64,000 nt of DNA from Saprospira grandis (lineage in GTDB: Bacteria; Bacteroidota; Bacteroidia; Chitinophagales; Saprospiraceae). The DNA lies in contig NZ_CP110854.1 in assembly GCF_027594745.1 (NCBI RefSeq), forward strand, positions 1,308,241 to 1,372,240. Direction: 5' to 3'. The stretch's first letter is position 1, and each line of letters begins with the position of its first letter. A program made the position numbers and the translations under genes. Below, one piece after another: positions 1,229 to 64,000 of this stretch. The notes below the pieces were generated by a model, which saw only the letters and a list, made by a program, of their open reading frames with translations, was not told where the DNA came from and searched no databases.

Positions 1229-1302
1229 GCTTCCATAGCTCAGTTGGTTAGAGCATCTGACTGTTAATCAGAGGGTCCCTGGTTCGAGCCCAGGTGGGAG
1301 CG
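1229..1302 (+). tRNA. tRNA-Asn (anticodon GTT)
   Basis: Cloverleaf folded by hand: 7-bp acceptor stem (GCTTCCA/TGGGAGC with one G-T wobble), D-arm GCTC/GAGC, anticodon stem TCTGA/TCAGA with loop CTGTTAA, T-arm GGTTCGAGCCC. CCA is not encoded. Confidence 0.85.
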
Positions 1303-1327
1303 CTACTCATACACAACAATATATTTT

Positions 1328-3711: not shown

Positions 3712-3875
3712 TTTTGGGGCTTCCCCTGCGGCCTTCGGCCTTGGGTCGGGCTGTGTCGCAGCTCGCAGGCTTGCTCGGCCCTGCAGCGCTTCGCGCTTTG
3801 GTCTGGCCCTTCGGGCCACTGCTATCCATCCCTAAGCCAAGTCGCTTCGCTCCTTTCTACTGCTTGGAGCAGAGG
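3712..3875 (+). repeat. Intergenic repeat module A, forward
   Basis: TTTTGGGGCTTCCCCTGCGGCCTTCGGCC...CTCGCAGGCTTGCTCGGCCCTGC...GGTCTGGCCCTTCGGGCCACTGCTATCCATCCCTAAGCC. Confidence 0.85.
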
Positions 3876-9397: not shown

Positions 9398-9537
9398 ATT
9401 GGCCCAGCGCTGCGAAGGGGGGGCCGCAAGGCCAGACCCAGGCGCTGAAAGCGCCGCAGGGCCGAGCAGACCTGCGAGCCCCGCAGCATAGCGGCGGCCG
9501 ACCTAGGCGAAGCCTAGCCGGCCGCGGGCCCCAAAAT
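9398..9537 (-). repeat. Intergenic repeat module A, reverse, truncated
   Basis: ...GCCGCAGGGCCGAGCAGACCTGCGAGCCCCGCAG...GGGCCCCAAAATC. Confidence 0.8.
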
Positions 9538-11778: not shown

Positions 11779-11890
11779 AGGCCCTAAAATCAACAGACCG
11801 CTAAATTTCGCCGCTAAGCGAGCCTAGCTAATCTCTAGTAGGGTCAGCCCAGAAAAAAAAGATAGGACCTTATAGATACGCCCGGAGGAG

Positions 11891-12200
11891 TTTGTAAACT
11901 GCAAATTAGCTCTGGCGTCACGCCAGAGGCGTTTTGCAACTGCAGATTAGCTCCGGCGCCACGCCAGAGGCATTTTGCAAATGCAGATTAGCTCTGGCGC
12001 CACGCCAGAGGCGTTTTGCAAATGCAGATTAGCTCTGGCGCCACGCCAGAGGCGTTTTGCAAATGCAGATTAGCTCCGGCGTCACGCCAGAGACGTTTTG
12101 CAAATGCAGATTAGCGCTGAACAGCTGTATAAAGCTGTTTTGCAAATGCAAATAAAGGCTAGCGCCAAGCCAGAGGCATTTGTAAACTGAAGATAGGTCC
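11891..12200. repeat. Tandem array of a 41-bp unit (about 7 copies, degenerate at the ends), each carrying a perfect 8-bp-stem hairpin CTCTGGCGyCACGCCAGAG
   Basis: Units GTTTTGCAAATGCAGATTAGCTCTGGCGCCACGCCAGAGGC repeat head-to-tail with 0-3 mismatches and no intervening unique spacers. Confidence 0.9.
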
Positions 12201-13399: not shown

Positions 13400-13572
13400 T
13401 TTTGGGGCTGCCCCTGCGGCCTTCGGCCTTGGGTCGGGCTGTGTCGCAGCTCGCAGGTCTGCTCGGCCCTGCGGCGGCTTTGCCGCCTGGGTCTGGCCTG
13501 CGGCCACTGCTGTCCATCCCTCAGCCGCGTCGCTACGCTCCTTTGCGGCCCTTCGGGCCTGTAGGAGGCAGA
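13400..13572 (+). repeat. Intergenic repeat module A, forward
   Basis: TTTTGGGGCTGCCCCTGCGGCCTTCGGCC...CTCGCAGGTCTGCTCGGCCCTGCGGCGGCTTTGCCGCC...CATCCCTCAGCCGCGTCGCTACGCTCCTTTGCGGCCCTTCGGGCC. Confidence 0.85.
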
Positions 13573-14267: not shown

Positions 14268-14440
14268 TTGCAGGGCCGAAGGCCCGCAAAGGAGCGTAGC
14301 GACGCGGCTGAGGGATGGACAGCAGTGGCCGAAGGCCAGACCCAGGCAGCTTTGCTGCCGCAGGGCCGAGCGAACAGCGAGCTGCGACACAGCCCGACCC
14401 AAGGCCGCAGGCCGCAGGGGCAGCCCCAACAAAAAATAAA
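14268..14440 (-). repeat. Intergenic repeat module A, reverse
   Basis: GGGCCGAAGGCCCGCAAAGGAGCGTAGCGACGCGGCTGAGGGATGG...GGCAGCCCCAACAAAAAA. Confidence 0.85.
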
Positions 14441-14443
14441 AAG

Positions 14444-21055: not shown

Positions 21056-21290
21056 GGCGCAAAGCGCCTGGCCACAACAAGCCCTTTAGGGCGTAGTTCG
21101 ACGACCAAAGGGAGTAACCGATGCGCAGCAGAGGCGCGAAGCGCCTGGCCTAGCGATGCGGCGGGGTGGCCGAAGGCCAGACCAAGCAGGCTTTGCCTGC
21201 GAAGGGCCGAGCAGACCTGCGAGCCCCAAAGTGTAGCGCCGACGAGCGAAGCGAGGCGGAGGCCCCAAAACAGACAGACAAAAAAACCTA
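21056..21290 (-). repeat. Intergenic repeat, long variant (module C + module A), reverse
   Basis: Contains rc of CGGTTACTCCCTTTGGTCGTCGAACTACGCCCTAAAGGGCTTGTTGT (module C) followed by GGCCTAGCGATGCGGCGGGGTGGCC...GGCCGAGCAGACCTGCGAGCCCC...GGAGGCCCCAAAA. Confidence 0.85.
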
Positions 21291-27013: not shown

Positions 27014-27160
27014 CAGAGCGGGCCGAAGGCCCGCCGGCCTAGCGATGTGCAGCAGTGCGGCGCAGCCGCAGACCCAGGCCGTCAGGCCGCAGGGCCGAGC
27101 AGACCTGCGAGCTGCGAAACGTAGCGCCGCAAGGCAAAGCCGCAGCGGAGGCCCCAAAAC
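27014..27160 (-). repeat. Intergenic repeat module A, reverse
   Basis: GGGCCGAAGGCCCGCCGGCCTAGCGATGTGCAGCAGTG...GGCCGAGCAGACCTGCGAGCTGCGAAACGTAGCGCC...GGAGGCCCCAAAA. Confidence 0.85.
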
Positions 27161-27232
27161 TCCTTAGACTTTCCTATATAAACGCTTCTGCCATAAAAAA
27201 AAGGGCCAAAAGGCCCTAAAGTTCTCTTAAAA

Positions 27233-27790
27233 TCAGCCTCTTGGCTTCCAAAGTACTTCTTCCGCCTGATGGCAATGGGCGGCAAAGCGGCCAAAAATAA
27301 AGAGGTAATCGGATAGGCGATTGAGGTATTGCAAGACCACCGCAGGCAGGGCTTGTTCTTCATTTAGGGCCACGGCTAGGCGCTCGGCACGGCGGCAAAC
27401 GGTGCGGGCAATATTGGCCCGAGACACCTGTGGGTGCCCGCCTGGCAAAACAAAATTTTTGAGGGGCGCCAAATGTTCATCCATGGCATCCATCCAGTTT
27501 TCGAGCTGCAAAACATCCTCGGGCAAAACATCGGGCTGCTTGACCTTCTCGGCCTTTTCGGGGGCGGTGGCCATGATGGTCCCTAGGCTAAACAAACGCT
27601 CCTGAATCTTCAAAAGCTGCTGCCGCTGTTCTTCCTGCTCGCAAAAATCTCTTAACAATCCTAAGTTCGCATTCAGCTCGTCTAGGCTGCCATAGGCCTC
27701 AATTCTCAAATGGTATTTGGGTAGGCGGCCCCCGCCCCAAAGTGCGGTGGTGCCTTTATCTCCAGTTTTGGTATAAATCTTAAACGACAT
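27233..27790 (-). CDS. ATP:cob(I)alamin adenosyltransferase, PduO/MMAB type
   Basis: Conserved N-terminus MSFKIYTKTGDKGTTALWGGGR and about 185 aa, typical of PduO-type adenosyltransferases. Confidence 0.85.
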   Translation of the reverse strand: MSFKIYTKTGDKGTTALWGGGRLPKYHLRIEAYGSLDELNANLGLLRDFCEQEEQRQQLLKIQERLFSLGTIMATAPEKAEKVKQPDVLPEDVLQLENWMDAMDEHLAPLKNFVLPGGHPQVSRANIARTVCRRAERLAVALNEEQALPAVVLQYLNRLSDYLFIFGRFAAHCHQAEEVLWKPRG

Positions 27791-27796
27791 AATTTA

Positions 27797-28363
27797 CTAT
27801 ACTTCTCCCTTTTGCTCTCGATAGCGCTTATAGGCCTTAATGCCTATCATCAGGCTTATTCCAAAGGCAATCAAACTCAAAAAGGCAATCAAAAAATCAG
27901 TTCTACTTTTATAAACGGCCAACAAAACAATGGCCAAGAGCAAGAGGGTGGCAATCTCATTGTACATCCTAAATTTGGCCGAACTCATCACAAATTCATT
28001 GCGGGCCAAACGCTGCATAATGCCCTTGCTGTAATAATGATAGCCAAGCAAAAGCACAATAAATCCCAGCTTCCAGTGCATCCAGATATTGGCCACAAAC
28101 CAATCCCAACCATAATAAATGAGCATCATGCTGCCCCCCAAAAAGGTAATAAACATGGCCGGCGTCATAATAATATGATACAATCGGCGCTGCATAATGG
28201 CGTATTGCTCCGTCAAAATTCCCCGCTCTGCCTCGGGCCGCTCCAAAGCCTCGGTATGATAAATAAATAGACGAGGCAGGTAAAATAGGGCCGCAAACCA
28301 GCTAATGAGCCCAATAAAGTGAATAACTTTACCCAAGTTATAGAGCCATGGCGTATCAAACAT
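27797..28363 (-). CDS. hemJ: HemJ-family membrane protein (protoporphyrinogen IX oxidase, UPF0093/CopD-like)
   Basis: About 188 aa, four TM helices, conserved HxxGxxxWxGxLFYLPRLFVYH-like N-terminal motif (HFIGLISWFAALFYLPRLFIYH). Confidence 0.65.
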   Translation of the reverse strand: MFDTPWLYNLGKVIHFIGLISWFAALFYLPRLFIYHTEALERPEAERGILTEQYAIMQRRLYHIIMTPAMFITFLGGSMMLIYYGWDWFVANIWMHWKLGFIVLLLGYHYYSKGIMQRLARNEFVMSSAKFRMYNEIATLLLLAIVLLAVYKSRTDFLIAFLSLIAFGISLMIGIKAYKRYREQKGEV

Positions 28364-28428
28364 ATTGCTTAGTTATTTTTTTACAGGGCGAAGATAAGGA
28401 TTATTAGCGCTCAAAATTGTGATTTTCT

Positions 28429-28842
28429 ATGTCTATTCAACATCATTCTATTGCTCTTCGGGCCAAAAGCCGAGGCTTCCACCTCATTACCACAGAGGTT
28501 TTGCAACAATTGCCTGCCCTGCCCCAAAACGGACTGCTACAGCTTTTTATTCAACATACTTCGGCTGGCCTGACCATTAACGAGAATGCCGATCCCGATG
28601 TTCGTATGGATTTTGAAACGATTTTTAATCGCCTGGTCCCCGAAAACCAAAAGGGCCTTTTGCATACCCTAGAAGGCCCCGACGATATGCCCGCCCACAT
28701 TAAAACCGCTTTTACGGGCACAAGTTTAAGTATTCCCATTATTTAAGGCCAACTCGCCCTAGGTACTTGGCAGGGCCTCTATCTTTGCGAGTTCAGAAAC
28801 CAAGGCGGCCGCCGAAAACTAGTCGCTACGATTATAGATTAG
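28429..28842 (+). pseudogene. yjbQ: yjbQ-family (UPF0047, secondary thiamine-phosphate synthase-like) gene interrupted by a single in-frame TAA at 28744-28746
   Basis: The 105-aa ORF ends ...TGTSLSIPII*. The same frame continues GQLALGTWQGLYLCEFRNQGGRRKLVATIID*, the invariant YjbQ C-terminus (GTWQGIYLxExR...R.V.VT). The stop replaces the residue of the conserved (E/D)NG motif. Confidence 0.7.
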
Positions 28843-28929
28843 GATTTGGGAAATCTGTTTATTATCTCTGTAGGTTAGAACCTCATAAAGCTAATCCTTT
28901 GAATACACAGTATACTGAATAGTTGGGGA

Positions 28930-29072
28930 TTTTGGGGCCTCCTGCCTGCGGCAGGCGCTACGTTCCGCAGCTCGCTATTCGCTCGGCCCTGCGGCAGCAA
29001 AGCTGCCTGGGTCTGGCCCTTCGGGCCACTGCTGCACATCGCTAGGCCAGGCTGGCCTTCGGCCAGCCTTCT
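28930..29072 (+). repeat. Intergenic repeat module A, forward
   Basis: TTTTGGGGCCTCCTGCCTGCGGCAGGCGCTACGTTCCGCAGCTCGCTATTCGCTCGGCCCTGCGGCAGCAAAGCTGCC...GGCCCTTCGGGCCACTGCTGCACATCGCTAGGCCAGGCTGGCCTTCGGCCAGCC. Confidence 0.85.
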
Positions 29073-29198
29073 AGATCCAAACAGATTTGGCCCTTTCTAC
29101 AGACTTTTGTAATTTTTTAGGCCCTTAGGGCTAACCATCAGCCCCTTTGGGGTATTACTCATTGAGCCCACAAGCTTACCCCCAGAAACCTCTTTTTT

Positions 29199-29775: not shown

Positions 29776-30666
29776 ATGGATTTTCATAGCCCCGAATGGC
29801 TGGATGCTTTCCAGCAAAACCAACTCTCTGCCGAAGAGCGAGCCGCTACCCTTGCCTTGGCCCAAAAAGATGCCGCCTATGCCGCCGAGCTGCAGGCCCA
29901 TGGCATCGCTATCCAAGCTATTCAGGCTTTTGGCCGCCAAACTGCCGTAGAAAAAATGGCCCAAGAACTTGAGGAGAAAGGCCTTTTTGAGCGACCTATC
30001 GAACAAGCCCTACAGACTCAAGCCGCCCAAAAACAAATTGGCCAAATTGCCCAAGAATTAGAAGCAGAAGGCTTTTTTGCCCAAGAGGAAGAAAAGGAAG
30101 AAGAGATTAAGGTGCGCCCCCTCCCCCGCTGGCGCCCAATTATGGGTATTGCCGCTAGCCTCATTCTATTGGTGAGTCTGGGCTATTGGTGGCAGAAGTC
30201 GCAAAGCCTGCCCGGCTGGTCTCAAGAATACACTATTGCTAGCGCAGAGTCTACCCAAAAAGAATTACAACTGCTTTTAGGCGCCCAAGGCTTTGGCCAA
30301 AATGAAGAAGCCCTCAGACAGTTGCAGCTTGGCCTCGATGCCTATGAAAAAAAGGATTGGACCAAAGCCAAAACAGAGTTGCTGGCCTACCAAAAGGCCA
30401 ATTCTATCTTTGCCCAAGAAGAAACCCAGTTTTATCTGGGCCATATCGCTTTTGAGCAAGGAGAACTAGACAGCGCAAAGTCCTACTGGCAAGAGCTGGC
30501 CCAATTGCCTAGCCTGCCCCCCCATATTTCCGAAAAACTCAGTTGGTATCAGGCCCTCTTGGCCCTACGCGAAAACCAAAAAGAACTGGCCAAAAGCTAC
30601 CTGAAAAAGGTGCCCCAAGGCCCCTATCAAGAAAAAGCCAAAGAGCTGTTGCAAACGCTAGAGTAA
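29776..30666 (+). CDS. Putative anti-sigma factor (single TM, C-terminal TPR-like periplasmic domain), translationally coupled to the ECF sigma gene
   Basis: Starts 5 nt after the sigma gene stop; central TM helix IMGIAASLILLVSLGYWW; C-terminal TPR-like repeats. Confidence 0.55.
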   Translation: MDFHSPEWLDAFQQNQLSAEERAATLALAQKDAAYAAELQAHGIAIQAIQAFGRQTAVEKMAQELEEKGLFERPIEQALQTQAAQKQIGQIAQELEAEGFFAQEEEKEEEIKVRPLPRWRPIMGIAASLILLVSLGYWWQKSQSLPGWSQEYTIASAESTQKELQLLLGAQGFGQNEEALRQLQLGLDAYEKKDWTKAKTELLAYQKANSIFAQEETQFYLGHIAFEQGELDSAKSYWQELAQLPSLPPHISEKLSWYQALLALRENQKELAKSYLKKVPQGPYQEKAKELLQTLE

Positions 30667-30700
30667 TACAAGGCCTTGCACCTTAGTAGAATATTAGACG

Positions 30701-30728
30701 ATCCCCTCCTCGGAGGGGATTTTTTTTG
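30701..30728 (+). terminator. Rho-independent terminator after the sigma/anti-sigma operon
   Basis: ATCCCCTCC-TCGG-AGGGGAT followed by TTTTTTT. Confidence 0.7.
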
Positions 30729-30791
30729 TCCCCTATTCGATAGAGATCAAATACCTCATCAAAGGCTTGATGCCCTAGTTGGTCCAAAACA

Positions 30792-30826
30792 AAAGGGGCT
30801 GCTCGATATCGAGCAGCCCCTTTGCG
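30792..30826 (-). terminator. Rho-independent terminator of the outer-membrane protein gene
   Basis: AAAGGGGCTGCTCGATATCGAGCAGCCCCTTT palindrome followed (minus strand) by TTTTGTTTTGG. Confidence 0.65.
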
Positions 30827-30843
30827 GCAGGTCCTAAGTCATC

Positions 30844-32526
30844 TTAGAACTTAGCGATTACACCAATTTTTCCATTGATGCCCAATTGCTGATAGAGGTA
30901 CCAACGTTGGTATTTATTATTGAGCAAATTATTGCCTTCTACAAAGAAAGCAAAGCGTTGTTGCTCTCCTTTTCCGAGCCAATAAGTAGCATTGAGGTTA
31001 AGATCAAACAAGCCGCCAAGGGTTTCGCTTTCGGTAGCCAAAGCGGGAAGATAAGGCACGCCCGCATTGACAAAGAGATCGGCCCCAACTTCTAGATTAC
31101 CTTTTTTGTAGGTCAGGCCAAAGCTAGACTCCAAAACAGGCAGATGATAAGCTACTTCAGCTGTTCCGCCGCTATAATTATTGAAGGCCAAAGCGCCCTT
31201 AAAGTAGAGTTCCTCCATAATTTGAAGCTCCACATCTGCGGCCACAGTTAGGCGGCTGAGCGTATCATAGGCCAGACCAAATTTCAGATAATTACTTTCT
31301 GCGGTATTATAGAAAAGGGGTTGTTGGCTCAAATTGGCATAAGAGACATTAAAGTCGTAGCCTAGGCGCTTAATCTTCCCTTTGAGGCCCCCATAAAAGC
31401 GGCTTTCTTGGGTATGTTCCCAATGCAGGCGCTCTGTATCCAAGAAAGGATTATAAGTAGAAAGCTGCATAAGCGTATTTTCACGGATACTGCCCGACCA
31501 ACCTGCATAGGGAATAAATTGGCCCCCTAAAACGGCATAGCTAAGCTCGATATCGGGCAAAACGAAGAACTGTCCGGCATTGCTTCCTAAGCGGGCGCCC
31601 AAACGGCTCTTAAAGTTGCCAAAATTGAGGTCGGCTCCAGCATGCAATTGGGCCAGGCTGCGGCTTTGGCTGCTATCGGTGGTGGTATAGCGGCTATACA
31701 GCAGCTCGGCATTGGCAAAGAGGCGATGTTGGGGGCTGCGGCTATTGCCCAACCATTTTTCAAAAACAAGGCGGGGACGGATATTGAGCTCGCCAACGCC
31801 ATGATAAGAAGTAGTATTATAGAGGTCCAGATCGGCTCTATAGTTCATCTCTTGTTTATTGCTTTTGGCATTGAAGAGATGAATATTGGCCCCTACCGTA
31901 AGGTAGCGCTGTTTGAGGCTATCTTCGGCTAGGCCAGAGCTATCTTGAGCGAAGGGATAAAGGCTATCGCCTAGATTTTCGAGCAGTTGGTGGTAGCCAT
32001 AATAGCGATAATTATTGAGGTCCATATTTAGGGCGCCGCCAACAGCAAGGCCATTAGACAGAAAATAATCGCCCTGTAGATTTAGCGAAGTTTCGCCAAA
32101 AACTTGGTCCTCTAAGTTACCTTGGCTGCTATGGTGTTTGGCTGTAGCCCCAAAGCGAAGTTTATCGCTATTGCTATTGTGGTAAGAGAGTTCTAGCAAG
32201 GGGGAAAGTGGGAAACCAATGCCTGCCTTTGTATAAAAGTTGAGACTTTTGGGGGGCTTAGGCACGGGCATAGCCAGTGGGCGGATATTGGGTTCTGGAT
32301 AATTAACCGAGACGATCCGTTCGGGGACCAAATAAGTCAATTTTTGGCCAGCGGTAGTATCCAAATTGGGTAAAAGAGGCTGAGCCTCCTGCTTTTTACT
32401 TTCGGCCAATTGGGCCTTAAAGGGTTTGACTAGCTCGGTCCCTACATCATTGATTTGGGCCTTTAGGCTGGGGGCAAACAGCCCAACAGCCAAAGCTAAA
32501 CAAAGAGATTTACTATATTTTATCAT
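30844..32526 (-). CDS. Putative outer-membrane beta-barrel protein
   Basis: Signal peptide MIKYSKSLCLALAVGLFAPSLKAQ, alternating amphipathic beta-strand pattern, C-terminal ...GKIGVIAKF ending in Phe. The track ORF extends to 32739 through a repeat; ATG at 32526 is chosen. Confidence 0.5.
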   Translation of the reverse strand: MIKYSKSLCLALAVGLFAPSLKAQINDVGTELVKPFKAQLAESKKQEAQPLLPNLDTTAGQKLTYLVPERIVSVNYPEPNIRPLAMPVPKPPKSLNFYTKAGIGFPLSPLLELSYHNSNSDKLRFGATAKHHSSQGNLEDQVFGETSLNLQGDYFLSNGLAVGGALNMDLNNYRYYGYHQLLENLGDSLYPFAQDSSGLAEDSLKQRYLTVGANIHLFNAKSNKQEMNYRADLDLYNTTSYHGVGELNIRPRLVFEKWLGNSRSPQHRLFANAELLYSRYTTTDSSQSRSLAQLHAGADLNFGNFKSRLGARLGSNAGQFFVLPDIELSYAVLGGQFIPYAGWSGSIRENTLMQLSTYNPFLDTERLHWEHTQESRFYGGLKGKIKRLGYDFNVSYANLSQQPLFYNTAESNYLKFGLAYDTLSRLTVAADVELQIMEELYFKGALAFNNYSGGTAEVAYHLPVLESSFGLTYKKGNLEVGADLFVNAGVPYLPALATESETLGGLFDLNLNATYWLGKGEQQRFAFFVEGNNLLNNKYQRWYLYQQLGINGKIGVIAKF

Positions 32527-32555
32527 TTGATTTTTCTTTAGACGATCTATTTTGG

Positions 32556-32726
32556 AGAGGACAGGCGGCGAAGCCGCCGCAAAGGAGCGCAGCGACGCGG
32601 CTGAGGGATGGATAGCAGTGGCCCGCAGGGCCAGACCGAAGCGCTTTAGCGCTGAAGGGCCGAGCAGACCTGCGAGCTGCGGCACAGCCCGACCCGCCCG
32701 CAGGGCGGGGCAGCCCCAAAAAAAGA
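32556..32726 (-). repeat. Intergenic repeat module A, reverse, lying between the TPR gene stop and the OMP gene start
   Basis: GGCGGCGAAGCCGCCGCAAAGGAGCGCAGCGACGCGGCTGAGGGATGGATAGCAGTGGCC...GGCCGAGCAGACCTGCGAGCTGCG...GGGCAGCCCCAAAAAAAG. Confidence 0.85.
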
Positions 32727-32731
32727 AAGAT

Positions 32732-35700
32732 TTAATCAATCATTTCTAGTTCGCCATTGCCATCATTTCGGCGCAGGCGGCTATTAGAAGAAATGGCTTG
32801 CTTGACTTGGGCCAATTTATCTTGGGCCTCCTTCACAATTTCGGCTTCTCCGCTGAAGTTGCCCAAAAGGCTTTCTAGGGTACCTTTGGCTGCATCTAGT
32901 TTGCCTTGTTCAGCATAGATATCGGCGATGAGGATAAAGTTGCGCGCCAACCAATTGAGGTGTTGGCCCAGCAGCTTATTGTTTTGGAAAGCCAGCTCTA
33001 GAGCGCCATCCAAATCGCGTTGGATATAAGTAATTTTGGCAATTTGGTAATGGGCTTCAGAGGCGTTAATATCGTCATCGACCAGCTTGAGGCTCTCCTT
33101 ATAAGACTGCATCGCCTTGGCATTATCGCCAGCGGCTTGTTGGGCCTTAGCCAGATAAAAATGGGCCTCGGCCTTATTGGCAGCGCTAGCATTGGGTTCT
33201 TTGAGAAAGTTGGTGGCCAGTCCCTTTAGCGCCTGATAATTTTGGCTATAATAGGCTGAGCGCATACCGAATAGGCGAGCTTCCGAGCGGTTTTCGGGGC
33301 TAGAAGCAAACTGTTCTAGGCCTTGAAAATAAGTGAGGGCCTTGGCATAATCCTCCGTAATATGGTAACAAATTCGGCCTGCCAAAAGGTTGGCTTCCTC
33401 TGCCATAGCGGGGGGCGCTTTGGGGTCCTTGGCCTCGGCCACATAAGCAAAATCGCCTAGGGCCTTGGGATACTCCTTGAGATTATAGTAGGCAATTCCT
33501 CGGTTGAGGTGGGCCGACATACTATTGAGGCCTTTTGGAAAGCGATCGAGATATTTGCTGTAATTATCGGCAGCGGCGGGCCAGTTTTCCTGATCGAAAG
33601 AAGAGGCGGCTGATTCATAAAGGAGCGAATCTGCGGCCATATCGGAGAAATTATAGCCCTGCAAAGTAGAGGCATAAGCCATAAAGCCGTCGGGATCGCC
33701 TTGATCGATATAGATTTTTCGGATAAAGTTGAGGGCCGCTTTGGCTTCCTCTGTTTGGACATTATTGCTCACCACCGTCTTAAAATAATCGAGGGCTTCG
33801 CGGTTCATATCGCGGCTATAAGAGAGCACGCCCAACTTATAGAGGGCTTTGGCGGTATACTCGCTATCGGGATACTTCACGATCAATTGGTCAAAACTTC
33901 CTTTGGCCTGATCGAATTCATTTTGGTTAATCTGCGTGCTCCCCATGGCATAAAGCGCATCATCTGCATAGATAGAACTGGGATGTTGGCCCACCAAATC
34001 GGCTAGGGTGCGCAGCTGCTTTTGGGCTTGATTGGTCAAGCTATAGATCAGGCTCAGCTGATACATGGCATAATCCTCATTGGGAAAATTATTGGCCACA
34101 ATGCGTTCATAATAGCCAGCAGCAGCAGTATAATTATTCGTTCCGCCCAAATAGAGGTAGCAGTCGCCAGCCCGGCCGAGGGCATCGGGATAGACAAAAT
34201 TGGAGACATGTCGATCATTGATTTTGCTCAGGCGGGGCTCAATATACTTGACCGCCTTCACGAACTCGCCCACGGCATTATCATAGCTATTTTTGCGAAG
34301 ATAATTGTAGCCTAGGCCATAATGGGCCGTTCCTTTAGAGGAATTGGCGGGTAATTGGGGAGCGGCAGCCGCTACGGTCGTAAAGCGGTTATACTCATCA
34401 ATACTTTTATCAAATTGGTCCAATTGGAAAAGCGCCTCGGCTTTCCAGAAATGGGCCAGGGCCGTGGTTTCGGTATGCACGGCAGAGCCCAGAGACTCAT
34501 TAAAGCGCTCTACGGCCTTGGTAAAATTGCTGGCCTTATAATGCTGCACGCCACGGAAATAAGCCACCTTTTGGAAAGCCTCTTTGAGAGAGGGCTCACT
34601 GCGGTCGATAGTTCTTAGGATGCTCAGGGCTTTTTCATAATCGCGAGTATTGAGGAAGAGCTGGCTCATCAAGTTTTGCGACTCGTTGCTGTATTTTGTA
34701 TTGAGTAGCTCCATAAAAGCCGAAATAGCGTCATTGTCTAGGCCCAACTCATAAGACAATTTGGCATAATTCATTTTAGCGTCAATCTGCAGTTCTTTGT
34801 CCTGCTTCATTTCTGCGGCCTGCTTAAACGAAAGGCGGGCCTCCTCTTTACGGCCTAATTTGAGTTGGCAATCGGCTAGATTGTAGCGGGCATTTTGGCC
34901 CAACTTATTATCTAATCGAGCAATTTGCTCAAAGTTACCGGCGGCATCCTCATATTTTCCAGCTCGATATTGGGTATAAGCCAATTGATAGAAGATATCT
35001 TCTGTCATTTTTGGCGTCTTGCTGGCGTATTCCTCCATATAAGGAAGCGCTTTTTTATAATTCTTCTTTTCGTAATAGGCTTGGCCCACCGCCTGTACAA
35101 TCGTCATACGTTCCCGCACCGTATTGCTTTTGGTGTAGGGTTCTCCGTAGGCAATTGTTTTATCATAATCCTTTTTCATGAAATGGATCTGCGTGATATA
35201 GGTAGGGACCACCTTTTCGTAGCGGCTCGACTTATTGGCAATTTCAAAGCTGGCCAAGGCGGCATCAAAGTCTTTGAGGAAGAAAGAGCAGAGGCCATAA
35301 TAGTAATTGGCGGAAAAAGTATACTCGCTTTTGGTCCCTTTGATTTGGGCAAAAACGGGTTGGGCTTTCTTAAAGTCCTTAGACACAAAATAGCAATAGG
35401 CCAACTGGAACTTGGCCTCAATCAGCTCCTCATTGCTCAGGTCATTGAGGTCTTTAAAATTGATGCTACTGAGGTATTTAATCGCCTTTTTATAATCTCT
35501 TTGGGCATAATAATAACGGCCCACCTCCAATTTGGCCTGAGCGGCCACCGACATAGGCTCATATTTCTTAATCAGGACCAAAAGTTTATTTTCGGCATCG
35601 GGCCGTTCCAAGCGCAGGGCGGCCAGAGCGGCATAAAGTTCTGCTTTGGGGCGGTAGGATTCGGGCAACTCCCAATCATCATAAAGGGCTTGATCGGGGG

Positions 35701-35981: not shown

Positions 35982-36228
35982 TCCGCTGCGGCTTCGCCTT
36001 GCGGCGGTTACTCCCTTCGGTCGTCGAACTGCGGACTAAAGTCCTTGTTGTCGCAGCTCGCTGCTGTTTTTGTGGGGCCTCCGCCTCCCTTTGGTCGTCG
36101 GCGCTACGTTTCGCAGCTCGCTATTCGCTCGGCCCTGCGCCAGCAAGCCGGCTAGGTCTGGCCTGCGGCCACTGCTGCACATCGCTAGGCCAAGGCGGCT
36201 TTGCCGCCTTCTGCTCCAAGAAAGTAAT
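35982..36228 (+). repeat. Intergenic repeat, long/dimeric variant (module C + module A), forward
   Basis: TTTTGGGGCCTCCGCTGCGGCTTCGCC...GGTTACTCCCTTCGGTCGTCGAACTGCGGACTAAAGTCCTTGTTGTCGCAGCTCGC, then a second TTTTTGTGGGGCCTCCGCCTCCC...CTCGCTATTCGCTCGGCCCTGC...CATCGCTAGGCCAAGGCGGCTTTGCCGCC. Confidence 0.85.
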
Positions 36229-41335: not shown

Positions 41336-41597
41336 TTTTTGGGGCCTCCGCTGCGGCCTGCGGCCTTGCGGCGGTTACTCCCTTTGGTCGTCGAACTGCG
41401 CCCTAAAGGGCTTGTTGTCGTTGCGCAGCTCGCTGCTATTTTGGGGCCTCCGCCTCCCTTCGGTCGTCGGCGCTACGTTTCGCAGCTCGCTGTTCGCTCG
41501 GCCCTGCGGCCTGACGGCCTGGGTCTGCGGCTTCGCCGCACTGCTGCACATCGCTAGGCCAAATGGAAGTCCTGCGCTTCGGCCATCCTTTGGTAAA
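41336..41597 (+). repeat. Intergenic repeat, long/dimeric variant (module C + module A), forward
   Basis: TTTTTTGGGGCCTCCGCTGCGGCCTGCGGCC...GGTTACTCCCTTTGGTCGTCGAACTGCGCCCTAAAGGGCTTGTTGTCG..., then a second TTTTGGGGCCTCCGCCTCCCTTCGG...CTCGCTGTTCGCTCGGCCCTGC...CATCGCTAGGCC. Confidence 0.85.
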
Positions 41598-43208: not shown

Positions 43209-43360
43209 GACCTTCGGTCATTCCTACCCCCAAAAGCTGCTGGGCCTGAAAACAGCAGCCCGCCATAAAATTAGAAGCAGGGGCTTTTAAGCTCCTGCGG
43301 CAAGAAAAATGAGGACCAACAAGATTGGCTGCGGCCTTTAGGCTGCAGTAAGCTCATTTA

Positions 43361-43578
43361 TATATCATTGCGAAGCAATACCATTGTTGCTGTAGGTTTC
43401 AACCTAAGTTCAATCCATGAGGGTTTTAACCCTCATCCATATATCATTGCGAAGCAATACCATCTGGCTGTAGGTTTCAACCTAAGTTCAATTCATGAGG
43501 GTTTTAACCCTCATCCATATATCATTGCGAAGCAATACCATCTGGCTGTAGGTTTCAACCTACAGTTAAAAGGGCCGA
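43361..43578 (-). repeat. Tandem array (78 bp x about 2.7) of module B (three palindromic hairpins)
   Basis: Units ATATCATTGCGAAGCAATACCATCTGGCTGTAGGTTTCAACCTAAGTTCAATyCATGAGGGTTTTAACCCTCATCCAT repeated at 43363, 43441 and 43519. Confidence 0.9.
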
Positions 43579-48076: not shown

Positions 48077-48133
48077 GTTTTAGTCTAGCCTACTTTCTAC
48101 TAGGACAGCAGCTACTGATGCAGTGGTTGCTGT

Positions 48134-48292
48134 TTTTTTTGGGGCCTGCCGCCTGCGGCGGCCGGGCCCTTGCAGGGCTCGCAGGTCTGCTCGGCCCTTC
48201 AGCCCTTCGGGCTTCGGTCTGGCCTGCGGCCACCCTTTCAGGCCCCTAGGCCAGTCGCTGCGCTCCTTTGCGGCGGCTGCGCCGCCTGTCTA
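48134..48292 (+). repeat. Intergenic repeat module A, forward (left arm of an inverted pair)
   Basis: TTTTTTTGGGGCCTGCCGCCTGCGGCGGCC...CTCGCAGGTCTGCTCGGCCCTTC...GGTCTGGCCTGCGGCCACCCTTTCAGGCCCCTAGGCC... Confidence 0.85.
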
Positions 48293-48342
48293 CCGCAATT
48301 GGACCAATAAAAAAAGCGCTGCTAAACGAAGTTTAGTCAGCG

Positions 48343-48490
48343 CTAGGGCCGCAAGGCCCTAATTGGCTTAGGGATGGATAGCAGTGGCCCGAAGGGCCAG
48401 AGCCAGGCGCTGAAAGCGCCGCAGGGCCGAGCAGACCTGCGAGCTGCGCCACAGCCCGACCCGACCAAAGGGAGGGGAAGCCCCAAACCC
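48343..48490 (-). repeat. Intergenic repeat module A, reverse (right arm of an inverted pair)
   Basis: GGGCCGCAAGGCCC...GGCTTAGGGATGGATAGCAGTGGCCCGAAGGGCCAGAGCC...GGCCGAGCAGACCTGCGAGCTGCG...GGGGAAGCCCCAAA. Confidence 0.85.
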
Positions 48491-52146: not shown

Positions 52147-52276
52147 AGGCTATATATAGATTAGATGCTGATTTAGAAGATCTGATTTTAAACTTTAAAA
52201 TCCTAACTGAAGTTCATACTTTTGCAGCTTTGAAGAGAAAAACTGCCAGAAGTTTAGTGCAAAAGGTCTTTTCTGC

Positions 52277-52428
52277 TTTTTTTGGGGCCTCCCCTCGCCC
52301 TCAAGGGCTCAGGGCGCTACGTTCCGGGGCTCGCTACTCGCTCGGCCCTTCGCCAGCAAGCTGGCTCGGTCTGGCCCTGCGGGCCACCCCTACACATCGC
52401 TAGGCCATGATGGCCTTCGGCCATCCTT
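52277..52428 (+). repeat. Intergenic repeat module A, forward
   Basis: TTTTTTGGGGCCTCCCCTCGCCCTCAAGGGCTCAGGGCGCTACGTTCCGGGGCTCGCTACTCGCTCGGCCCTTC...CATCGCTAGGCCATGATGGCCTTCGGCCATCC. Confidence 0.85.
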
Positions 52429-55447: not shown

Positions 55448-55590
55448 AAGGCCCGAAGGGCCGCAGGCCTAGCGATGTGCAGCAGTGGCCGTCAGGCCAG
55501 ACCCAGCCGCTGAAAGCGGCGCAGGGCCGAGCGAATAGCGAGCTGCGGAACGTAGCGCCGACGAGCGAAGCGAGGCGGAGGCCCAAAAAA
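55448..55590 (-). repeat. Intergenic repeat module A, reverse
   Basis: GGCCCGAAGGGCCGCAGGCCTAGCGATGTGCAGCAGTGGCCGTCAGGCCAGACCC...GGCCGAGCGAATAGCGAGCTGCGGAACGTAGCGCC...GGAGGCCCAAAAAAA. Confidence 0.85.
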
Positions 55591-55627
55591 ATCGCCCTTA
55601 TCCTCGATCATTTTCTTCAGAAGTGCT

Positions 55628-59915: not shown

Positions 59916-60039
59916 CGGTATTCGTCGCTGCGCTCCTCATTCGCCAATATGTCCCCGCCCACCCAGCCCTCTGCGGGATTCCCTAAGGAATCCCTCAGGG
60001 AGGCGGGCAACAAGCTTGCTGCAGACTTGGTCCAAATTC

Positions 60040-60118
60040 AACGCATGAGGGTTGAAACCCTCATGCCTATAAGATGGCGAAGCAATACCGCTCTTGCTGT
60101 AGGTGTTCAGCTACAGCT
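60040..60118 (-). repeat. Module B (three hairpins, partly degenerate), reverse
   Basis: ATGAGGGTTGAAACCCTCAT / GGCGAAGCAATACC / CTGTAGGTGTTCAGCTACAG. Confidence 0.7.
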
Positions 60119-60275
60119 AAAAAGGGCCGAAGGCCCGCAGGCTGAGGGATGGATAGCAGTGGCCCAAAGGGCCAGACCCAGCCGCCTTTGGCGGCGCAGG
60201 GCCGAGCAGACCTGCGAGCTGCGACACAGCCCGACCCGAAGGCCCAAAGGGCCGAAGGGGCAGCCCCAAAAAAAG
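60119..60275 (-). repeat. Intergenic repeat module A, reverse; with 59723-59915 it forms an inverted pair bracketing module B
   Basis: GGGCCGAAGGCCCGCAGGCTGAGGGATGGATAGCAGTGGCCC...GGCCGAGCAGACCTGCGAGCTGCGACACAGCCCGACCC...GGGGCAGCCCCAAAAAAAG. Confidence 0.85.
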
Positions 60276-60278
60276 AAA

Positions 60279-61565
60279 CTACTCCCCCTCCCAGCGGGCA
60301 AAAAGCAAACAACTATTCACATCTCCAAAGCCAAAACTCGCCTTGGCCATATAGCGCAAATCTGCCGCCTCCATTTGCAGGGGAATACAGGCAGCAGAAA
60401 TCTGGGCCGCAATCTCGGGATGAAGATCTTCGGCATTTTTGCTGGGGTGCAAAAAGCCATGGACCAATTGCAAGACCACCGCCACCGACTCAATAGCTCC
60501 CGCCGCAGATAAACAATGACCAATCAAGGATTTTAGGCTATTAATCTTAGGGAAATCATCGGCAGAGCGGCCCAAAGCCCGCAGCCAAGCCCCAATTTCG
60601 GCAGGATCGCCCATGGTGGCCGTCAGATGGCCCGAAATAGCGTCTAGCTCCTGCGCAGCAATGCCCGCATCGGCCAAAGCCAAGCGAATACAGCGCTCTA
60701 TCGCCTTGATGTTGGGAGCCGTCATGCTGCCCCCCTGACGCTGACCGCCCGCATTTAAGTGCCCCCCTTTTAGCTCGGCATAAATGTGCGCGCCACGGGC
60801 TTGAGCCGAGGCCAAACTCTCTAAAACCAATGCGCCAGCGCCGCTGCCCGGCACAAAACCCGCCGCCTGCTCGCTCATTGGGCGAGAAGCCTGCTCTGGG
60901 CGGTCATTAAACTTGCGGCAAAGCACCCGCATCGAATCAAAACCCGCCCAAATATATGGACCAGAACTGTTGCAGCTACCGACCAGCATCCGCTCCGCTC
61001 GTCCCGACCGAATACGATCATAGCCCATTAATATGGCCTCACTGCCCGTGCTGCAAGCCGCCGAATTAGAACTCAACTGATTGCCAAGGCCCAAAAAACC
61101 GCCCAAATAAGCGCTGATGCTGCTCTCCATCGTCTGTTGAATCAAAGAAGAGCCAATGCGGCGGACCTTGCCCGCATCCACCTTATAAATTCCCTCTCGA
61201 ACCACCTCAATACTAGACTGCCCGCCGCCAAAAATGCAGCCCGCCTCCCAATCGGGTTCCTCTTCCTTTTCAGAAATTGGCAAGGCGGCATCCTGCCAAG
61301 CCTCTAGGCCCGCCAAACAGCCATACAAAAGGCCAGAGCCCTGAATATATCGCCTTTGTAAGGGCGTCAAGAAGCTATTAATGTACTCTTCGGTCAGCGG
61401 AGGGCTGCCTGCGACTCGACAAGCAAACTGTAGCTCCTCCAAATCTGGACGATAGCTAATTCCCGACTTTCCCGACTGCAAAGCGGCCAAAAAATCGGCC
61501 TTTCCCAAGGCGTTGGGAGCCACCACCCCCAAACCCGTAATCACGACTCTATTTTCCTGCATCAT
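60279..61565 (-). CDS. Beta-ketoacyl-ACP synthase (KAS I/II-type, Cys-His-His elongating ketosynthase)
   Basis: Active-site SAACSTG (Cys), GHLTATMGDPAE and SLIGHCLSAAG (His/His); 428 aa. Confidence 0.85.
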   Translation of the reverse strand: MMQENRVVITGLGVVAPNALGKADFLAALQSGKSGISYRPDLEELQFACRVAGSPPLTEEYINSFLTPLQRRYIQGSGLLYGCLAGLEAWQDAALPISEKEEEPDWEAGCIFGGGQSSIEVVREGIYKVDAGKVRRIGSSLIQQTMESSISAYLGGFLGLGNQLSSNSAACSTGSEAILMGYDRIRSGRAERMLVGSCNSSGPYIWAGFDSMRVLCRKFNDRPEQASRPMSEQAAGFVPGSGAGALVLESLASAQARGAHIYAELKGGHLNAGGQRQGGSMTAPNIKAIERCIRLALADAGIAAQELDAISGHLTATMGDPAEIGAWLRALGRSADDFPKINSLKSLIGHCLSAAGAIESVAVVLQLVHGFLHPSKNAEDLHPEIAAQISAACIPLQMEAADLRYMAKASFGFGDVNSCLLFARWEGE

Positions 61566-62010
61566 GGCTATTTTTTTTGGTCCACATTCCCGCTAATTCG
61601 GCCTTAGCGACCAAATCGCCAGCCTCATTATAGGCCGAGGCCGTCACTCGAAGCTGTTGGAGACGAAATAATTTCTTTTTGGCCTCTACCCGCAGCAGCT
61701 CTCCAGGGCGATGGAGCTGGTAGAAATTCACCTTAGAGCTACTAAAAGCAATTTTGGGCACCTCCTGCAGCTCCTCTTTCAATAAATAAATGCCTAGGCA
61801 AACCAGGCCAATTTGAGCCATGCACTCCAAGAGCAGCACCCCCGGCGTAATGGGGTCCTCGGGAAAATGGTCCGCATAAAAAGGGGCATCCTCTGCAAAG
61901 CGGTATTGGCCAATAACGCCCTCCTCGTTCAGCTCCAACAACTCATCTACAAAGCAGAAACTGGGACCATAGGGAAGCAAGGCCAAAATATCTTGATAAT
62001 TTTCTTTCAT
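61549..62010 (-). CDS. FabZ/FabA-like 3-hydroxyacyl-ACP dehydratase (hotdog fold)
   Basis: HFP.DPI.PGVL..E..AQ motif (HFPEDPITPGVLLLECMAQ); 153 aa; overlaps the KAS gene by 17 nt. Confidence 0.8.
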   Translation of the reverse strand: MKENYQDILALLPYGPSFCFVDELLELNEEGVIGQYRFAEDAPFYADHFPEDPITPGVLLLECMAQIGLVCLGIYLLKEELQEVPKIAFSSSKVNFYQLHRPGELLRVEAKKKLFRLQQLRVTASAYNEAGDLVAKAELAGMWTKKNSHDAGK

Positions 62011-62016
62011 CTTTTC

Positions 62017-62802
62017 TTAAATCAATCGTTCTCCCCCATCTACGGGGATAATAGCGCCATTAATCCAGGCCGATTCTGCTCGGCAAAGCAGCTCGATAAC
62101 TTTGGCCACATCTTCGGCCTTAGTCATTCGGCCCAAAGGGTTTCGACTTTTGGCAAATTGGGCCAAATCATCGCTGCCTGGAATCAGTTGAAAAGAGCGA
62201 GTATTCATCATGCCCGCCTGTACAATATTGGCTCGGATGCCCAGAGGCGCATACTCTAGGGCCATAGAACGGATGATGGCCTCTAGGGCCGTTTTGGCGG
62301 CAGATACAGCCGCATAATGGGACCAAGCCCGCTGGTTGCCGCCACTACTGAGGCCCAAAACTCGGGCATCTTCGGCAAAGCGGCCTAGAGCAATTAATCC
62401 CTGCGCCCAATCGACAATACTATAAGCCATATTTTGGGCCGTGAGCTGAAAATCAGTACTCGTCAAATTATTCTGCCCTAAAAAAGCCTTGAGATTTCCC
62501 TTGGCAATACTATGCAGCAACAGCCGAAAACGCGCCCCAGCAGGCAGGCGGTTCGAGAGCTCGGCCAAAGAGCGGGCAATTTGCTCCTTCTGCGTAGCAT
62601 CCACATTATAATGCAAAATGCTTACGCCCGTTTCTAGGGCCAAGGCCTGAAAACGAGCCTGGGCCTCTCGGGCATCGGCTCGCCTTTCTCGATAATAAAT
62701 GCAAAGCGACATGCCTTTTTTGGCCAGTACTTGGGCCGCAGCCCAACCTAATCCAGAAGAGCCCCCTAAAATGAGCCCCCAAAGTTCTTTTTCCTTATAC
62801 AT
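62017..62802 (-). CDS. SDR-family reductase with FabI-like Y-x6-K catalytic motif (putative enoyl-ACP reductase)
   Basis: N-terminal Rossmann GGSSGLG; catalytic YAAVSAAK (Y-x6-K, spacing characteristic of FabI rather than the classical YxxxK) followed by ANIVQAGMMNT, cf. E. coli FabI NAISAGPIRT. Confidence 0.65.
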   Translation of the reverse strand: MYKEKELWGLILGGSSGLGWAAAQVLAKKGMSLCIYYRERRADAREAQARFQALALETGVSILHYNVDATQKEQIARSLAELSNRLPAGARFRLLLHSIAKGNLKAFLGQNNLTSTDFQLTAQNMAYSIVDWAQGLIALGRFAEDARVLGLSSGGNQRAWSHYAAVSAAKTALEAIIRSMALEYAPLGIRANIVQAGMMNTRSFQLIPGSDDLAQFAKSRNPLGRMTKAEDVAKVIELLCRAESAWINGAIIPVDGGERLI

Positions 62803-62829
62803 GGGTTTACTAATTTTCTGGGGCGAAGC

Positions 62830-63888
62830 CTACTCCCAATTTAATAATAGCCGCTGAGCCGAAAAGCCTGGGCCAAAGCTGAGCATCAGGCCCTTTTCGC
62901 CTGCGGCAATCTCCTTTTCTAGATAGCGCTCGAGCACATAGAGCACCGTGGCCGAAGACATATTGCCATAAAGGCGCAAGACCTCCTTGGTCTCCTCGAT
63001 ATTTTTGCCCAAATCGGCAAAAAGGCCCTCTACCATCTGTACAATCTTTTTGCCGCCGGGATGAAAAATCAAATGCTCAATCTCTTCGATCGTCAAGCCA
63101 TTCTTTTCAATAAAAGGAAAAAGGACCGACTTAAAATGCCGCTCAATTTTATTGGGCACTTCCTTGTCCAAAATCATTTGAAGGCCCGTATTGCGCAGCT
63201 TGAAGCCCATCATATCAATTTCGTCATAAAAATGATACATTTCTCCTGCAATGATGGCGGGTTTTAGCTCCTCGGAGGGGCCCAGAATGGTACAAACCGC
63301 TCCATCGCCAAAAATGGCCGCACTGACCATATTGACCATGCTCATATCATCCTGCTGAAAAGTAGCCGTAGGCGACTCAAAAGCGACAATAGCCGCCCGC
63401 TTGCCCGGATTGGCCAAAAGCAGATTGTAGGCATAAATCAAAGCGGAGGTTCCCCCCGCACAGCCCATTTCTGTTACGGGCAAACGCATAATATCTTGAC
63501 GCATTCTCAGCGCATTAATTAAGTAGGCATCTATGGAGGGAATCATAATGCCCGTACAGCTCACACTAATGATTATATCGATATCGGTAGGCTGCAAATT
63601 GGCTTTTTTGAGGGCCCCTTCTACGGCTTGCTGCGTCAGTAGGGTATATTCCTCGGCATAACGGGCATTCTTTTCCTCAAAGGAGGTTTGCTGAAACACC
63701 TCTTCGATGTCCATAATGGAGTAGCGACGGTCTACCTGCGCATAGCGAAAAATACGCTCCACCTTACGGCGAAAGCGTTCGTCTTGGCCCTTGGCCTGCA
63801 GCCAAAGATCGATATAGGGTAAAATATCGGCTGTAGATCTAGAATAAGGCGGCAGAGCCTTATGTGTGGAAAGTATTTTTATAGACAA
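62830..63888 (-). CDS. Type III polyketide synthase (chalcone/stilbene synthase superfamily)
   Basis: Active-site Cys context MGCAGGTSAL; HPGGKKI; GNMSSATV (cf. CHS GNMSSACV); C-terminal SFGPGFS (GFGPG loop). These motifs match type III PKS, not FabH. Start codon appears to be TTG. Confidence 0.8.
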   Translation of the reverse strand: MSIKILSTHKALPPYSRSTADILPYIDLWLQAKGQDERFRRKVERIFRYAQVDRRYSIMDIEEVFQQTSFEEKNARYAEEYTLLTQQAVEGALKKANLQPTDIDIIISVSCTGIMIPSIDAYLINALRMRQDIMRLPVTEMGCAGGTSALIYAYNLLLANPGKRAAIVAFESPTATFQQDDMSMVNMVSAAIFGDGAVCTILGPSEELKPAIIAGEMYHFYDEIDMMGFKLRNTGLQMILDKEVPNKIERHFKSVLFPFIEKNGLTIEEIEHLIFHPGGKKIVQMVEGLFADLGKNIEETKEVLRLYGNMSSATVLYVLERYLEKEIAAGEKGLMLSFGPGFSAQRLLLNWE

Positions 63889-64000
63889 GAGAGTATATTT
63901 TAAGTTTTTTGGGGTAAGCGATTTTTAAAATACGAGAAAAAATAGGCTATGGAGTTATTTAGCTGCTTTTTTATCTTTCTCCAAATGGAATCACTTCCTT

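What the first reader, a model, noticed from the sequence alone, without database searches (positions are those of the whole stretch)
28429..28842. Conserved yjbQ gene interrupted by one in-frame TAA with an intact downstream conserved C-terminus
Translation in a single frame gives ...TGTSLSIPII-TAA-GQLALGTWQGLYLCEFRNQGGRRKLVATIID-stop. The downstream 31 codons encode the invariant YjbQ C-terminus (GTWQG.YL.E.R). The gene is therefore intact apart from a single stop that replaces the residue of the conserved (E/D/K)NG motif. There are three possibilities: a very recent nonsense mutation giving a fresh pseudogene, a sequencing or assembly error, or programmed stop-codon readthrough. The strict conservation downstream argues against long-standing decay.
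Basis: seen in the sequence. Interest (0 to 1): 0.5.

Follow-up and report, generated by a model that had tools for sequence, protein, structure and literature searches.

The report
Ordinary nonsense-mutated yjbQ pseudogene
One laboratory type strain of the marine bacterium Saprospira grandis carries a single C-to-T change that turns a glutamine codon of the small, dispensable yjbQ gene into a stop codon; this is an ordinary recent gene inactivation, not a recoding signal.

Summary
Window 28429-28842 (+) is a UPF0047/YjbQ gene with one in-frame TAA at 28744-28746. It is followed by 31 codons that encode the family's conserved C-terminus.

- **Source:** the window is 100% identical over 1800 bp to a short-read contig from SRR23239775. 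That is the 310x Illumina run of Saprospira grandis type strain WH(T), genome CP110854.1. A consensus or assembly error is therefore unlikely.
- **Ancestral state:** all 13 other Saprospira alleles found are uninterrupted 137-codon genes with CAA (Gln) or CAC (His) at codon 106. These include strains Lewin, DSM 2844 and CCB-QB6 plus metagenomic contigs. The change is a private CAA>TAA transition.
- **Effect:** truncation removes two predicted core beta-strands and the invariant G112, W114, Q115, E121, R123 and R129.
- **No sign of recoding:** TAA is the commonest terminator in the window. The stop is not conserved. No RNA structure, Rfam element, suppressor tRNA or restart codon was found. No other gene in the comparable 13 kb is interrupted.
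codon 106 is a variable position, not part of a conserved motif. The intact downstream sequence says little about age, because only about 0.3 private changes would be expected in 93 nt.

Verdict: a strain-specific nonsense pseudogene of low interest.

The parts
28429..28842 (+). Whole yjbQ (UPF0047) pseudogene: 137 codon positions plus the native TAG stop
   Evidence: Pfam PF01894 E 8e-38 and TIGR00149 E 1.3e-38 when read through. tblastn of the 98%-identical intact orthologue P0001 covers residues 1-137 at 28429-28839. Synteny with the adenosyltransferase and UPF0093/HemJ genes is the same in strains Lewin, DSM 2844 and the CCB-QB6-like contig.
28429..28746 (+). Remaining open reading frame: 105 codons ending at the premature TAA
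   Evidence: The exact 105-aa product is on record only once, on Logan contig SRR23239775_1440.
28744..28746 (+). Premature stop TAA at codon 106. C>T at 28744 converts the ancestral CAA (Gln).
   Evidence: Alignment A2 and the codon table: 11 other records have CAA and 2 have CAC. 28744 is one of 5 substitutions private to this lineage in 1610 bp.
28747..28842 (+). Orphaned 31 codons plus the native TAG. They encode two predicted core beta-strands (E115-121, E129-136) and the invariant G112, W114, Q115, E121, R123 and R129.
   Evidence: The sequence is nucleotide-identical to the intact allele L009 over these 93 bases. It contains no in-frame ATG, GTG or TTG.
27797..28363 (-). Divergently transcribed neighbour (UPF0093/HemJ-like, 188 aa). 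It is intact and serves as the synteny anchor; it is not part of the defect.
   Evidence: full-length alignment at 97.9-98.4% to strains Lewin and DSM 2844, with no stops.

Best explanation
This is a genuine, strain-specific nonsense mutation. A C>T transition at window position 28744 changed codon 106 of yjbQ from CAA (Gln) to TAA. It occurred in the lineage, or the culture-collection stock, of Saprospira grandis type strain WH(T). Translation stops after residue 105.

The product lacks the last two predicted beta-strands of the YjbQ fold and six invariant residues, so it is most probably misfolded and inactive. The remaining 31 codons are untranslated remnants that have not yet had time to decay. 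The gene is a young pseudogene.

Loss is tolerated because YjbQ is an accessory protein whose only demonstrated activity is a weak secondary thiamin-phosphate synthase. The strain has been kept on rich medium.

- **Shown:** the sequence, the ancestral state, support from the reads, and the isolated nature of the defect.
- **Inferred:** loss of function, tolerance of the loss, and the timing.
For: - **Ancestral state.** All 13 other Saprospira alleles are uninterrupted 137-codon genes with CAA or CAC at codon 106. They comprise Lewin CP002831, DSM 2844, CCB-QB6 and at least 9 metagenome or Logan contigs. The 105-aa form is the only truncated member of its 90% cluster.
- **The base is in the reads.** Logan contig SRR23239775_1440 is 100.000% identical to window 27130-28929, including the TAA. 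SRR23239775 is the 310x NovaSeq run of strain WH(T). Its genome CP110854.1 was built by Unicycler hybrid assembly with 340x Nanopore data (PMC10508125).
- **The defect is isolated.** All other genes in the roughly 13 kb alignable to Lewin, DSM 2844 or the CCB-QB6-like contig align full-length without stops. The genome paper reports only 16 pseudogenes among 3,386 genes.
- **Structural consequence.** The AlphaFold model of the 98%-identical intact orthologue has pLDDT 91 and strands at 99-105, 115-121 and 129-136. It superposes over its full length on solved YjbQ structures (1vmf TM 0.82, 1ve0 0.83). G112, W114, Q115, E121, R123 and R129 are invariant.
- **TAA works as a terminator here.** It ends 30 of 56 long open frames in the window.
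- **Mutation type.** C>T transitions are the commonest spontaneous substitution class (established knowledge).
- **Dispensability.** YjbQ's known activity is a weak secondary one that rescues thiE mutants (Morett et al. 2008, as cited in PMC3020362).
Against: - The short-read contig and the published genome come from the same DNA preparation, so they are not independent biological replicates.
- I could not count reads, so a minority CAA allele in the culture cannot be excluded.
- Loss of function is inferred from a model and from conservation, not measured.
- No second sequencing of the type strain from another collection (ATCC 23119, JCM 21750) was found.
- That the window is CP110854.1 is inferred from 100% identity over 1800 bp, not read from a record.
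Confidence: 0.9

Rival explanations
1. Sequencing or assembly error: the organism really has CAA, and the T at 28744 is an artefact of the consensus.
For: The allele is seen in only one genome project. The assembly pipeline used Nanopore R9.4 reads, which have systematic errors.
Against: Unicycler builds the base sequence from the Illumina graph, here at 310x. An unrelated assembler (Logan) working from the Illumina run alone gives the identical 1800 bp, with the TAA and no break at the site. The typical long-read error is a homopolymer indel, not a clean transition. No other gene nearby shows a defect.
Confidence: 0.04
2. Functional readthrough or suppression: the TAA is decoded at useful frequency, through a suppressor tRNA, a leaky context or programmed recoding. 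Full-length YjbQ is still made.
For: The downstream 31 codons are in frame and carry no private change. The ancestral codon CAA is one step from TAA, as in known ochre-suppression and Gln-reassignment cases (established knowledge; a lead only).
Against: - The stop is absent from all 13 orthologues, so nothing is conserved.
- TAA ends 30 of 56 long open frames in the window.
- No other gene in the 13 kb compared carries an in-frame stop.
- The RNA downstream folds no better than shuffles, z = -0.22, and there is no Rfam element.
- The only tRNAs in the window are two tRNA-Asn.
- UAA is the least leaky stop in bacteria (established knowledge).
- The intact downstream sequence is expected by chance, with about 0.3 changes expected.
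Confidence: 0.03
3. The truncated 105-residue protein is itself a functional shortened isoform, or the two pieces work as a split protein.
For: The 105-aa fragment still scores 89.8 bits against PF01894 and retains the HTSA and DDMPAH motifs.
Against: The deleted part holds two of the predicted core strands and six invariant residues. Of the 120 best homologues listed, none is shorter than 135 aa. The downstream piece has no in-frame ATG, GTG or TTG and no ribosome-binding context, so it cannot be made separately.
Confidence: 0.02

Closest known systems
UPF0047 / YjbQ family (Pfam PF01894, TIGR00149; solved structures 1VMF, 1VE0, 1XBF, 1VMH, 1VMJ, 2CU5, 1VPH, 2P6C, 2P6H)
   Same: The sequence scores well above both curated cut-offs when read through. 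It is 94-99% identical to intact Saprospira orthologues. The model of the closest orthologue matches solved family members at TM 0.8.
   Different: The reading frame here is cut at codon 106, so the encoded product lacks profile positions 87-117.
Strain-specific nonsense pseudogenes in cultured bacterial strains (PGAP 'internal stop' class)
   Same: There is a single transition to a stop in an otherwise intact, syntenic, accessory gene. The intact allele is present in all relatives. The genome has few such cases, 16 pseudogenes.
   Different: Nothing distinguishes it. I could not read the PGAP record to confirm that this locus is one of the 16.
Programmed stop-codon readthrough or stop-codon reassignment (for example TAG/TAA to Gln in some phages and ciliates; ochre suppressors)
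   Same: Only the Gln-to-TAA relationship and the in-frame continuation.
   Different: There is no conservation of the stop, no stimulatory structure, no other in-frame TAA in neighbouring genes, and TAA is the dominant terminator.

Membership tests
UPF0047 / YjbQ | Sequence scores above the curated Pfam and NCBIfam cut-offs | tested here: met
   PF01894 scores 129.6 bits against a cut-off of 27. TIGR00149 scores 131.7 bits against 67.75, with the stop read as X.
UPF0047 / YjbQ | YjbQ fold, matching solved family structures over the full length | tested here: met
   The model of the 98%-identical orthologue P0001 (pLDDT 91) matches 1vmf_A at TM 0.82 over 136 columns, with 16 more family chains at E below 1e-10. 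This was tested on the intact orthologue, not on the truncated product.
UPF0047 / YjbQ | Uninterrupted ORF encoding the whole domain, including the GTWQG..E.R C-terminus | tested here: not met
   TAA at 28744-28746 ends translation after residue 105. The profile is covered only at positions 2-86 of 117. The locus is therefore a pseudogene of the family, not a functional member.
UPF0047 / YjbQ | Secondary thiamin-phosphate synthase activity (thiE complementation) | not testable with these tools
   Known only from the literature (Morett et al. 2008, via PMC3020362).
Nonsense-mutation pseudogene | Ancestral state is a sense codon in close relatives | tested here: met
   Codon 106 is CAA in 11 records and CAC in 2. 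All 13 proteins are 137 aa.
Nonsense-mutation pseudogene | The variant is present in the sequencing reads, not only in the consensus | tested here: met
   The Logan assembly of Illumina run SRR23239775 is 100% identical over 1800 bp, including the TAA. Both come from the same DNA preparation as the genome, and allele counts were not available.
Nonsense-mutation pseudogene | The truncation removes parts needed for function | tested here: met
   Two predicted core strands (115-121, 129-136) and six invariant residues are lost. Loss of activity is inferred from this.
Programmed readthrough / recoding | Stop codon conserved at the site among orthologues | tested here: not met
   None of the 13 orthologous alleles carries a stop.
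Programmed readthrough / recoding | Stimulatory RNA structure or known element 3' of the stop | tested here: not met
   Folding of 28735-28860 gives z = -0.22 against shuffles. No Rfam family reaches its gathering score.
Programmed readthrough / recoding | Stop codon reassigned, or a suppressor tRNA present | tested here: inconclusive
   TAA terminates 30 of 56 long open frames, and no other gene in 13 kb carries an in-frame stop. This rules out reassignment. The window holds only two tRNA-Asn, and the rest of the genome could not be scanned.
Programmed readthrough / recoding | Full-length protein detected | not testable with these tools
   Needs proteomics or a reporter assay.

The most novel reading that the evidence does not exclude
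The TAA at codon 106 is partly suppressed in strain WH(T), for instance by an ochre-suppressor tRNA elsewhere in the genome or by unusually leaky termination at UAA-G. Trace amounts of full-length YjbQ are still made, which could be enough for a trace-requirement activity.
Probability: 0.02. Interest if true: 0.4.

Novelty: already known. Interest (0 to 1): 0.05.

Why it matters
It matters little. It is a small annotation point for the type-strain genome of Saprospira grandis: yjbQ should be flagged as a pseudogene with an internal stop. It may serve as a marker of the LMG 10407 stock lineage.

It is also a caution for scans of this kind. A single in-frame stop with an 'intact' short downstream remnant is what any recent nonsense mutation looks like. 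It should not be taken as a hint of recoding unless the stop is conserved across relatives.

Tried and rejected
- **Code reassignment.** Rejected. TAA ends 30 of 56 long open frames, and the neighbouring genes have no in-frame stops.
- **Three contiguous same-frame open segments at 61549-63924 (-).** They looked like another interrupted gene. They are three separate genes, each with its own start codon: a type III PKS-like gene, an SDR and a dehydratase.
- **Readthrough-stimulating structure.** None found; z = -0.22. No Rfam element or TPP riboswitch lies near the gene.
- **Split gene.** Rejected, because there is no in-frame start codon after the TAA.
- **Frameshift bypass.** Irrelevant, because the conserved C-terminus is in the same frame.
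- **Paralogue in the window.** None found.
- **Scan of genome contigs for the site, either allele.** It returned only DSM 2844, with CAA.
- **Scan of metagenome contigs with the same pattern.** It returned nothing, so no environmental TAA allele was found.
- **Dating the mutation from downstream decay.** Uninformative, because only about 0.3 substitutions would be expected.

Full report
**1. Observation**

Reading window 28429-28842 on the + strand in one frame gives 105 codons, a TAA at 28744-28746, 31 further codons and a TAG at 28840-28842. The mechanical ORF list ends the gene at 28746 with 105 aa.

With the stop read as X, the protein matches Pfam PF01894 (UPF0047) over profile positions 2-117 of 117 at 129.6 bits. 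It matches TIGR00149 (YjbQ) at 131.7 bits against a cut-off of 67.75. The 105-aa product alone reaches only 89.8 bits and profile positions 2-86. The roughly 40 extra bits show that the downstream 31 codons are the true C-terminus. An open stretch of that length alone would mean nothing, since 20% of all stop-to-stop segments in the window are at least 31 codons long.

**2. Source of the window**

A protein search returned Saprospira relatives at 90-98% identity. The exact 105-aa product is on record once, on a 1800-bp Logan contig assembled from SRA run SRR23239775. That contig is 100.000% identical to window 27130-28929.

A genome announcement (PMC10508125) identifies SRR23239775. It is the Illumina NovaSeq run (310x) of Saprospira grandis type strain WH(T) (ATCC 23119 = JCM 21750 = LMG 10407). 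The genome, CP110854.1, was assembled with Unicycler from this run plus 340x Nanopore data. PGAP reported 16 pseudogenes among 3,386 genes. I infer that the window is part of that chromosome.

**3. Ancestral state**

The 90% cluster holding the truncated protein has nine other members, all 137 aa, including strain Lewin (AFC24109.1). The neighbouring cluster includes Saprospira sp. CCB-QB6.

I fetched DNA for 13 further records and compared codons. Codon 106 is CAA (Gln) in 11 records and CAC (His) in 2. The window and its own short-read contig are the only ones with TAA. The event is therefore a C>T transition at 28744.

In a 1610-bp alignment covering the adenosyltransferase gene, the UPF0093/HemJ gene and yjbQ, the window's lineage has five private substitutions. 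Two are synonymous, two are conservative replacements (D81E, V106L), and one is this nonsense change. The nearest intact alleles are 97.6-98.3% identical over that region. One of them (L009) is nucleotide-identical to the window over the 93 bases after the stop.

**4. Is the base real?**

Raw reads could not be inspected. However, two different assemblers working from the 310x Illumina data give the same base, and the Logan contig runs through the site without a break. These are Unicycler for the genome and Logan's unitig/contig pipeline.

A clean transition is not the typical long-read error. Every other gene in the roughly 13 kb alignable to Lewin, DSM 2844 or the CCB-QB6-like contig aligns end to end without a stop. 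A consensus error is therefore unlikely.

Two questions remain open. One is whether a minority CAA allele exists in the culture. The other is whether other collection stocks of the type strain carry the mutation.

**5. Consequence for the protein**

An AlphaFold model of the 98%-identical intact orthologue has pLDDT 91 and pTM 0.85. Its strands lie at 3-10, 16-19, 34-41, 46-52, 99-105, 115-121 and 129-136. It superposes over its full length on solved YjbQ-family structures (1vmf TM 0.82, 1ve0 TM 0.83, and others).

Stopping after residue 105 removes the last two strands. It also removes G112, W114, Q115, E121, R123 and R129, which are invariant in 57 homologues. None of the 120 best homologues listed is shorter than 135 aa. 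I infer loss of function.

The only experimentally described activity of the family is a weak secondary thiamin-phosphate synthase that rescues thiE mutants (Morett et al. 2008, cited in PMC3020362). Loss in a strain kept on tryptone medium is plausibly neutral. That last step is inference.

**6. Tests of the exotic readings**

- **Code reassignment.** TAA is the commonest terminator of long open frames in the window, 30 of 56. No neighbouring gene has an in-frame stop.
- **Programmed readthrough.** The stop is not conserved in any relative. The RNA from 28735 to 28860 folds no better than shuffled controls, z = -0.22. No Rfam family is present near the gene.
- **Suppressor tRNA.** The window holds only two identical tRNA-Asn genes. 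The rest of the genome could not be scanned.
- **Split gene.** There is no in-frame ATG, GTG or TTG after the TAA.
- **Frameshifting.** It cannot be involved, because the conserved C-terminus is in the same frame.

**7.

The interrupted position is not part of a conserved (E/D/K)NG motif. Column 106 is N21, D9, Q7, G5, H4, E4, A3, S2 among 57 homologues, and Q or H in Saprospira.

The argument that strict downstream conservation speaks against long-standing decay is nearly empty here. With 5 private substitutions per 1610 bp on this lineage, about 0.3 would be expected in 93 bases under no constraint at all. Zero observed changes does not separate 'very recent' from 'anywhere on the terminal branch', nor from 'still translated'.

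**8. Verdict**

This is an ordinary, strain-specific nonsense pseudogene of an accessory gene in a long-cultured type strain. I put confidence at about 0.9. The rivals are sequencing error at about 0.04, useful readthrough or suppression at about 0.03, and a functional truncated or split product at about 0.02. It belongs to a well-known kind and has no mechanistic novelty. Interest is low.

**9. Limits**

- No read-level allele counts were available.
- There is no independent resequencing of the type strain.
- There was no access to the whole genome for a tRNA scan or to the PGAP annotation.
- No expression or protein data were available.

The decisive checks are listed under next steps.

Noticed in passing
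window, about 23 sites, e.g. 2312-2433, 3712-3860, 9400-9522, 13400-13561, 14271-14441, 21071-21270, 27029-27160, 28917-29090, 32581-32728, 36063-36141, 41349-41582, 48128-48487, 52276-52428, 55459-55591, 60122-60278: A dispersed, GC-rich intergenic repeat family of roughly 120-180 nt occurs in both orientations. It is built of nested short hairpins (GGCC...GGCC, CGCAGCTCGC...). One copy lies immediately 3' of yjbQ. Short-read (Logan) contigs break at these elements. No Rfam family matches them.
   Followed up: partly
window 11841-12194: A tandem array of a 41-nt unit, with 6 full copies detected at 41-nt spacing plus a diverged copy 83 nt further on. Each unit contains a GC-rich hairpin (GCTCTGGCGCCACGCCAGAGGC). 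It lies in an intergenic position after the gene ending at 11733.
   Followed up: no
window 43353-43563 and 60017-60113: A tandem array of a 78-nt unit, about 2.7 copies at 99% identity. A diverged single copy lies 16.5 kb away, next to another GC-rich repeat.
   Followed up: no
window 1229-1303 and 1328-1402: Two identical tRNA-Asn (GTT) genes lie 99 nt apart, start to start.
   Followed up: no
window 60279-63888 (-): A four-gene cluster comprises a type III PKS-like gene (352 aa), a short-chain dehydrogenase-like gene (261 aa), a FabZ/hot-dog-like gene (153 aa) and a ketoacyl synthase-like gene (428 aa). The first three lie end to end in the same frame, but each has its own start codon. The functional names are my reading of the translations and were not tested.
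   Followed up: partly
window 30666-30844 versus L011 12235-12918 (strain Lewin): The spacer between the 296-aa gene and the 631/560-aa outer-membrane-like gene is 178 nt in the window. It is about 680 nt in strain Lewin, where extra short ORFs are called. This is probably a repeat-element insertion or deletion polymorphism.
   Followed up: no
window 30844-32739 (-): The mechanical 631-aa ORF starts at a TTG, and its first ~70 residues are translated from a GC-rich repeat copy. In DSM 2844 the gene is called at 560 aa, and a 560-aa ORF from Lewin aligns full-length at 30847-32526. The true start is therefore probably the internal ATG near 32526.
   Followed up: partly
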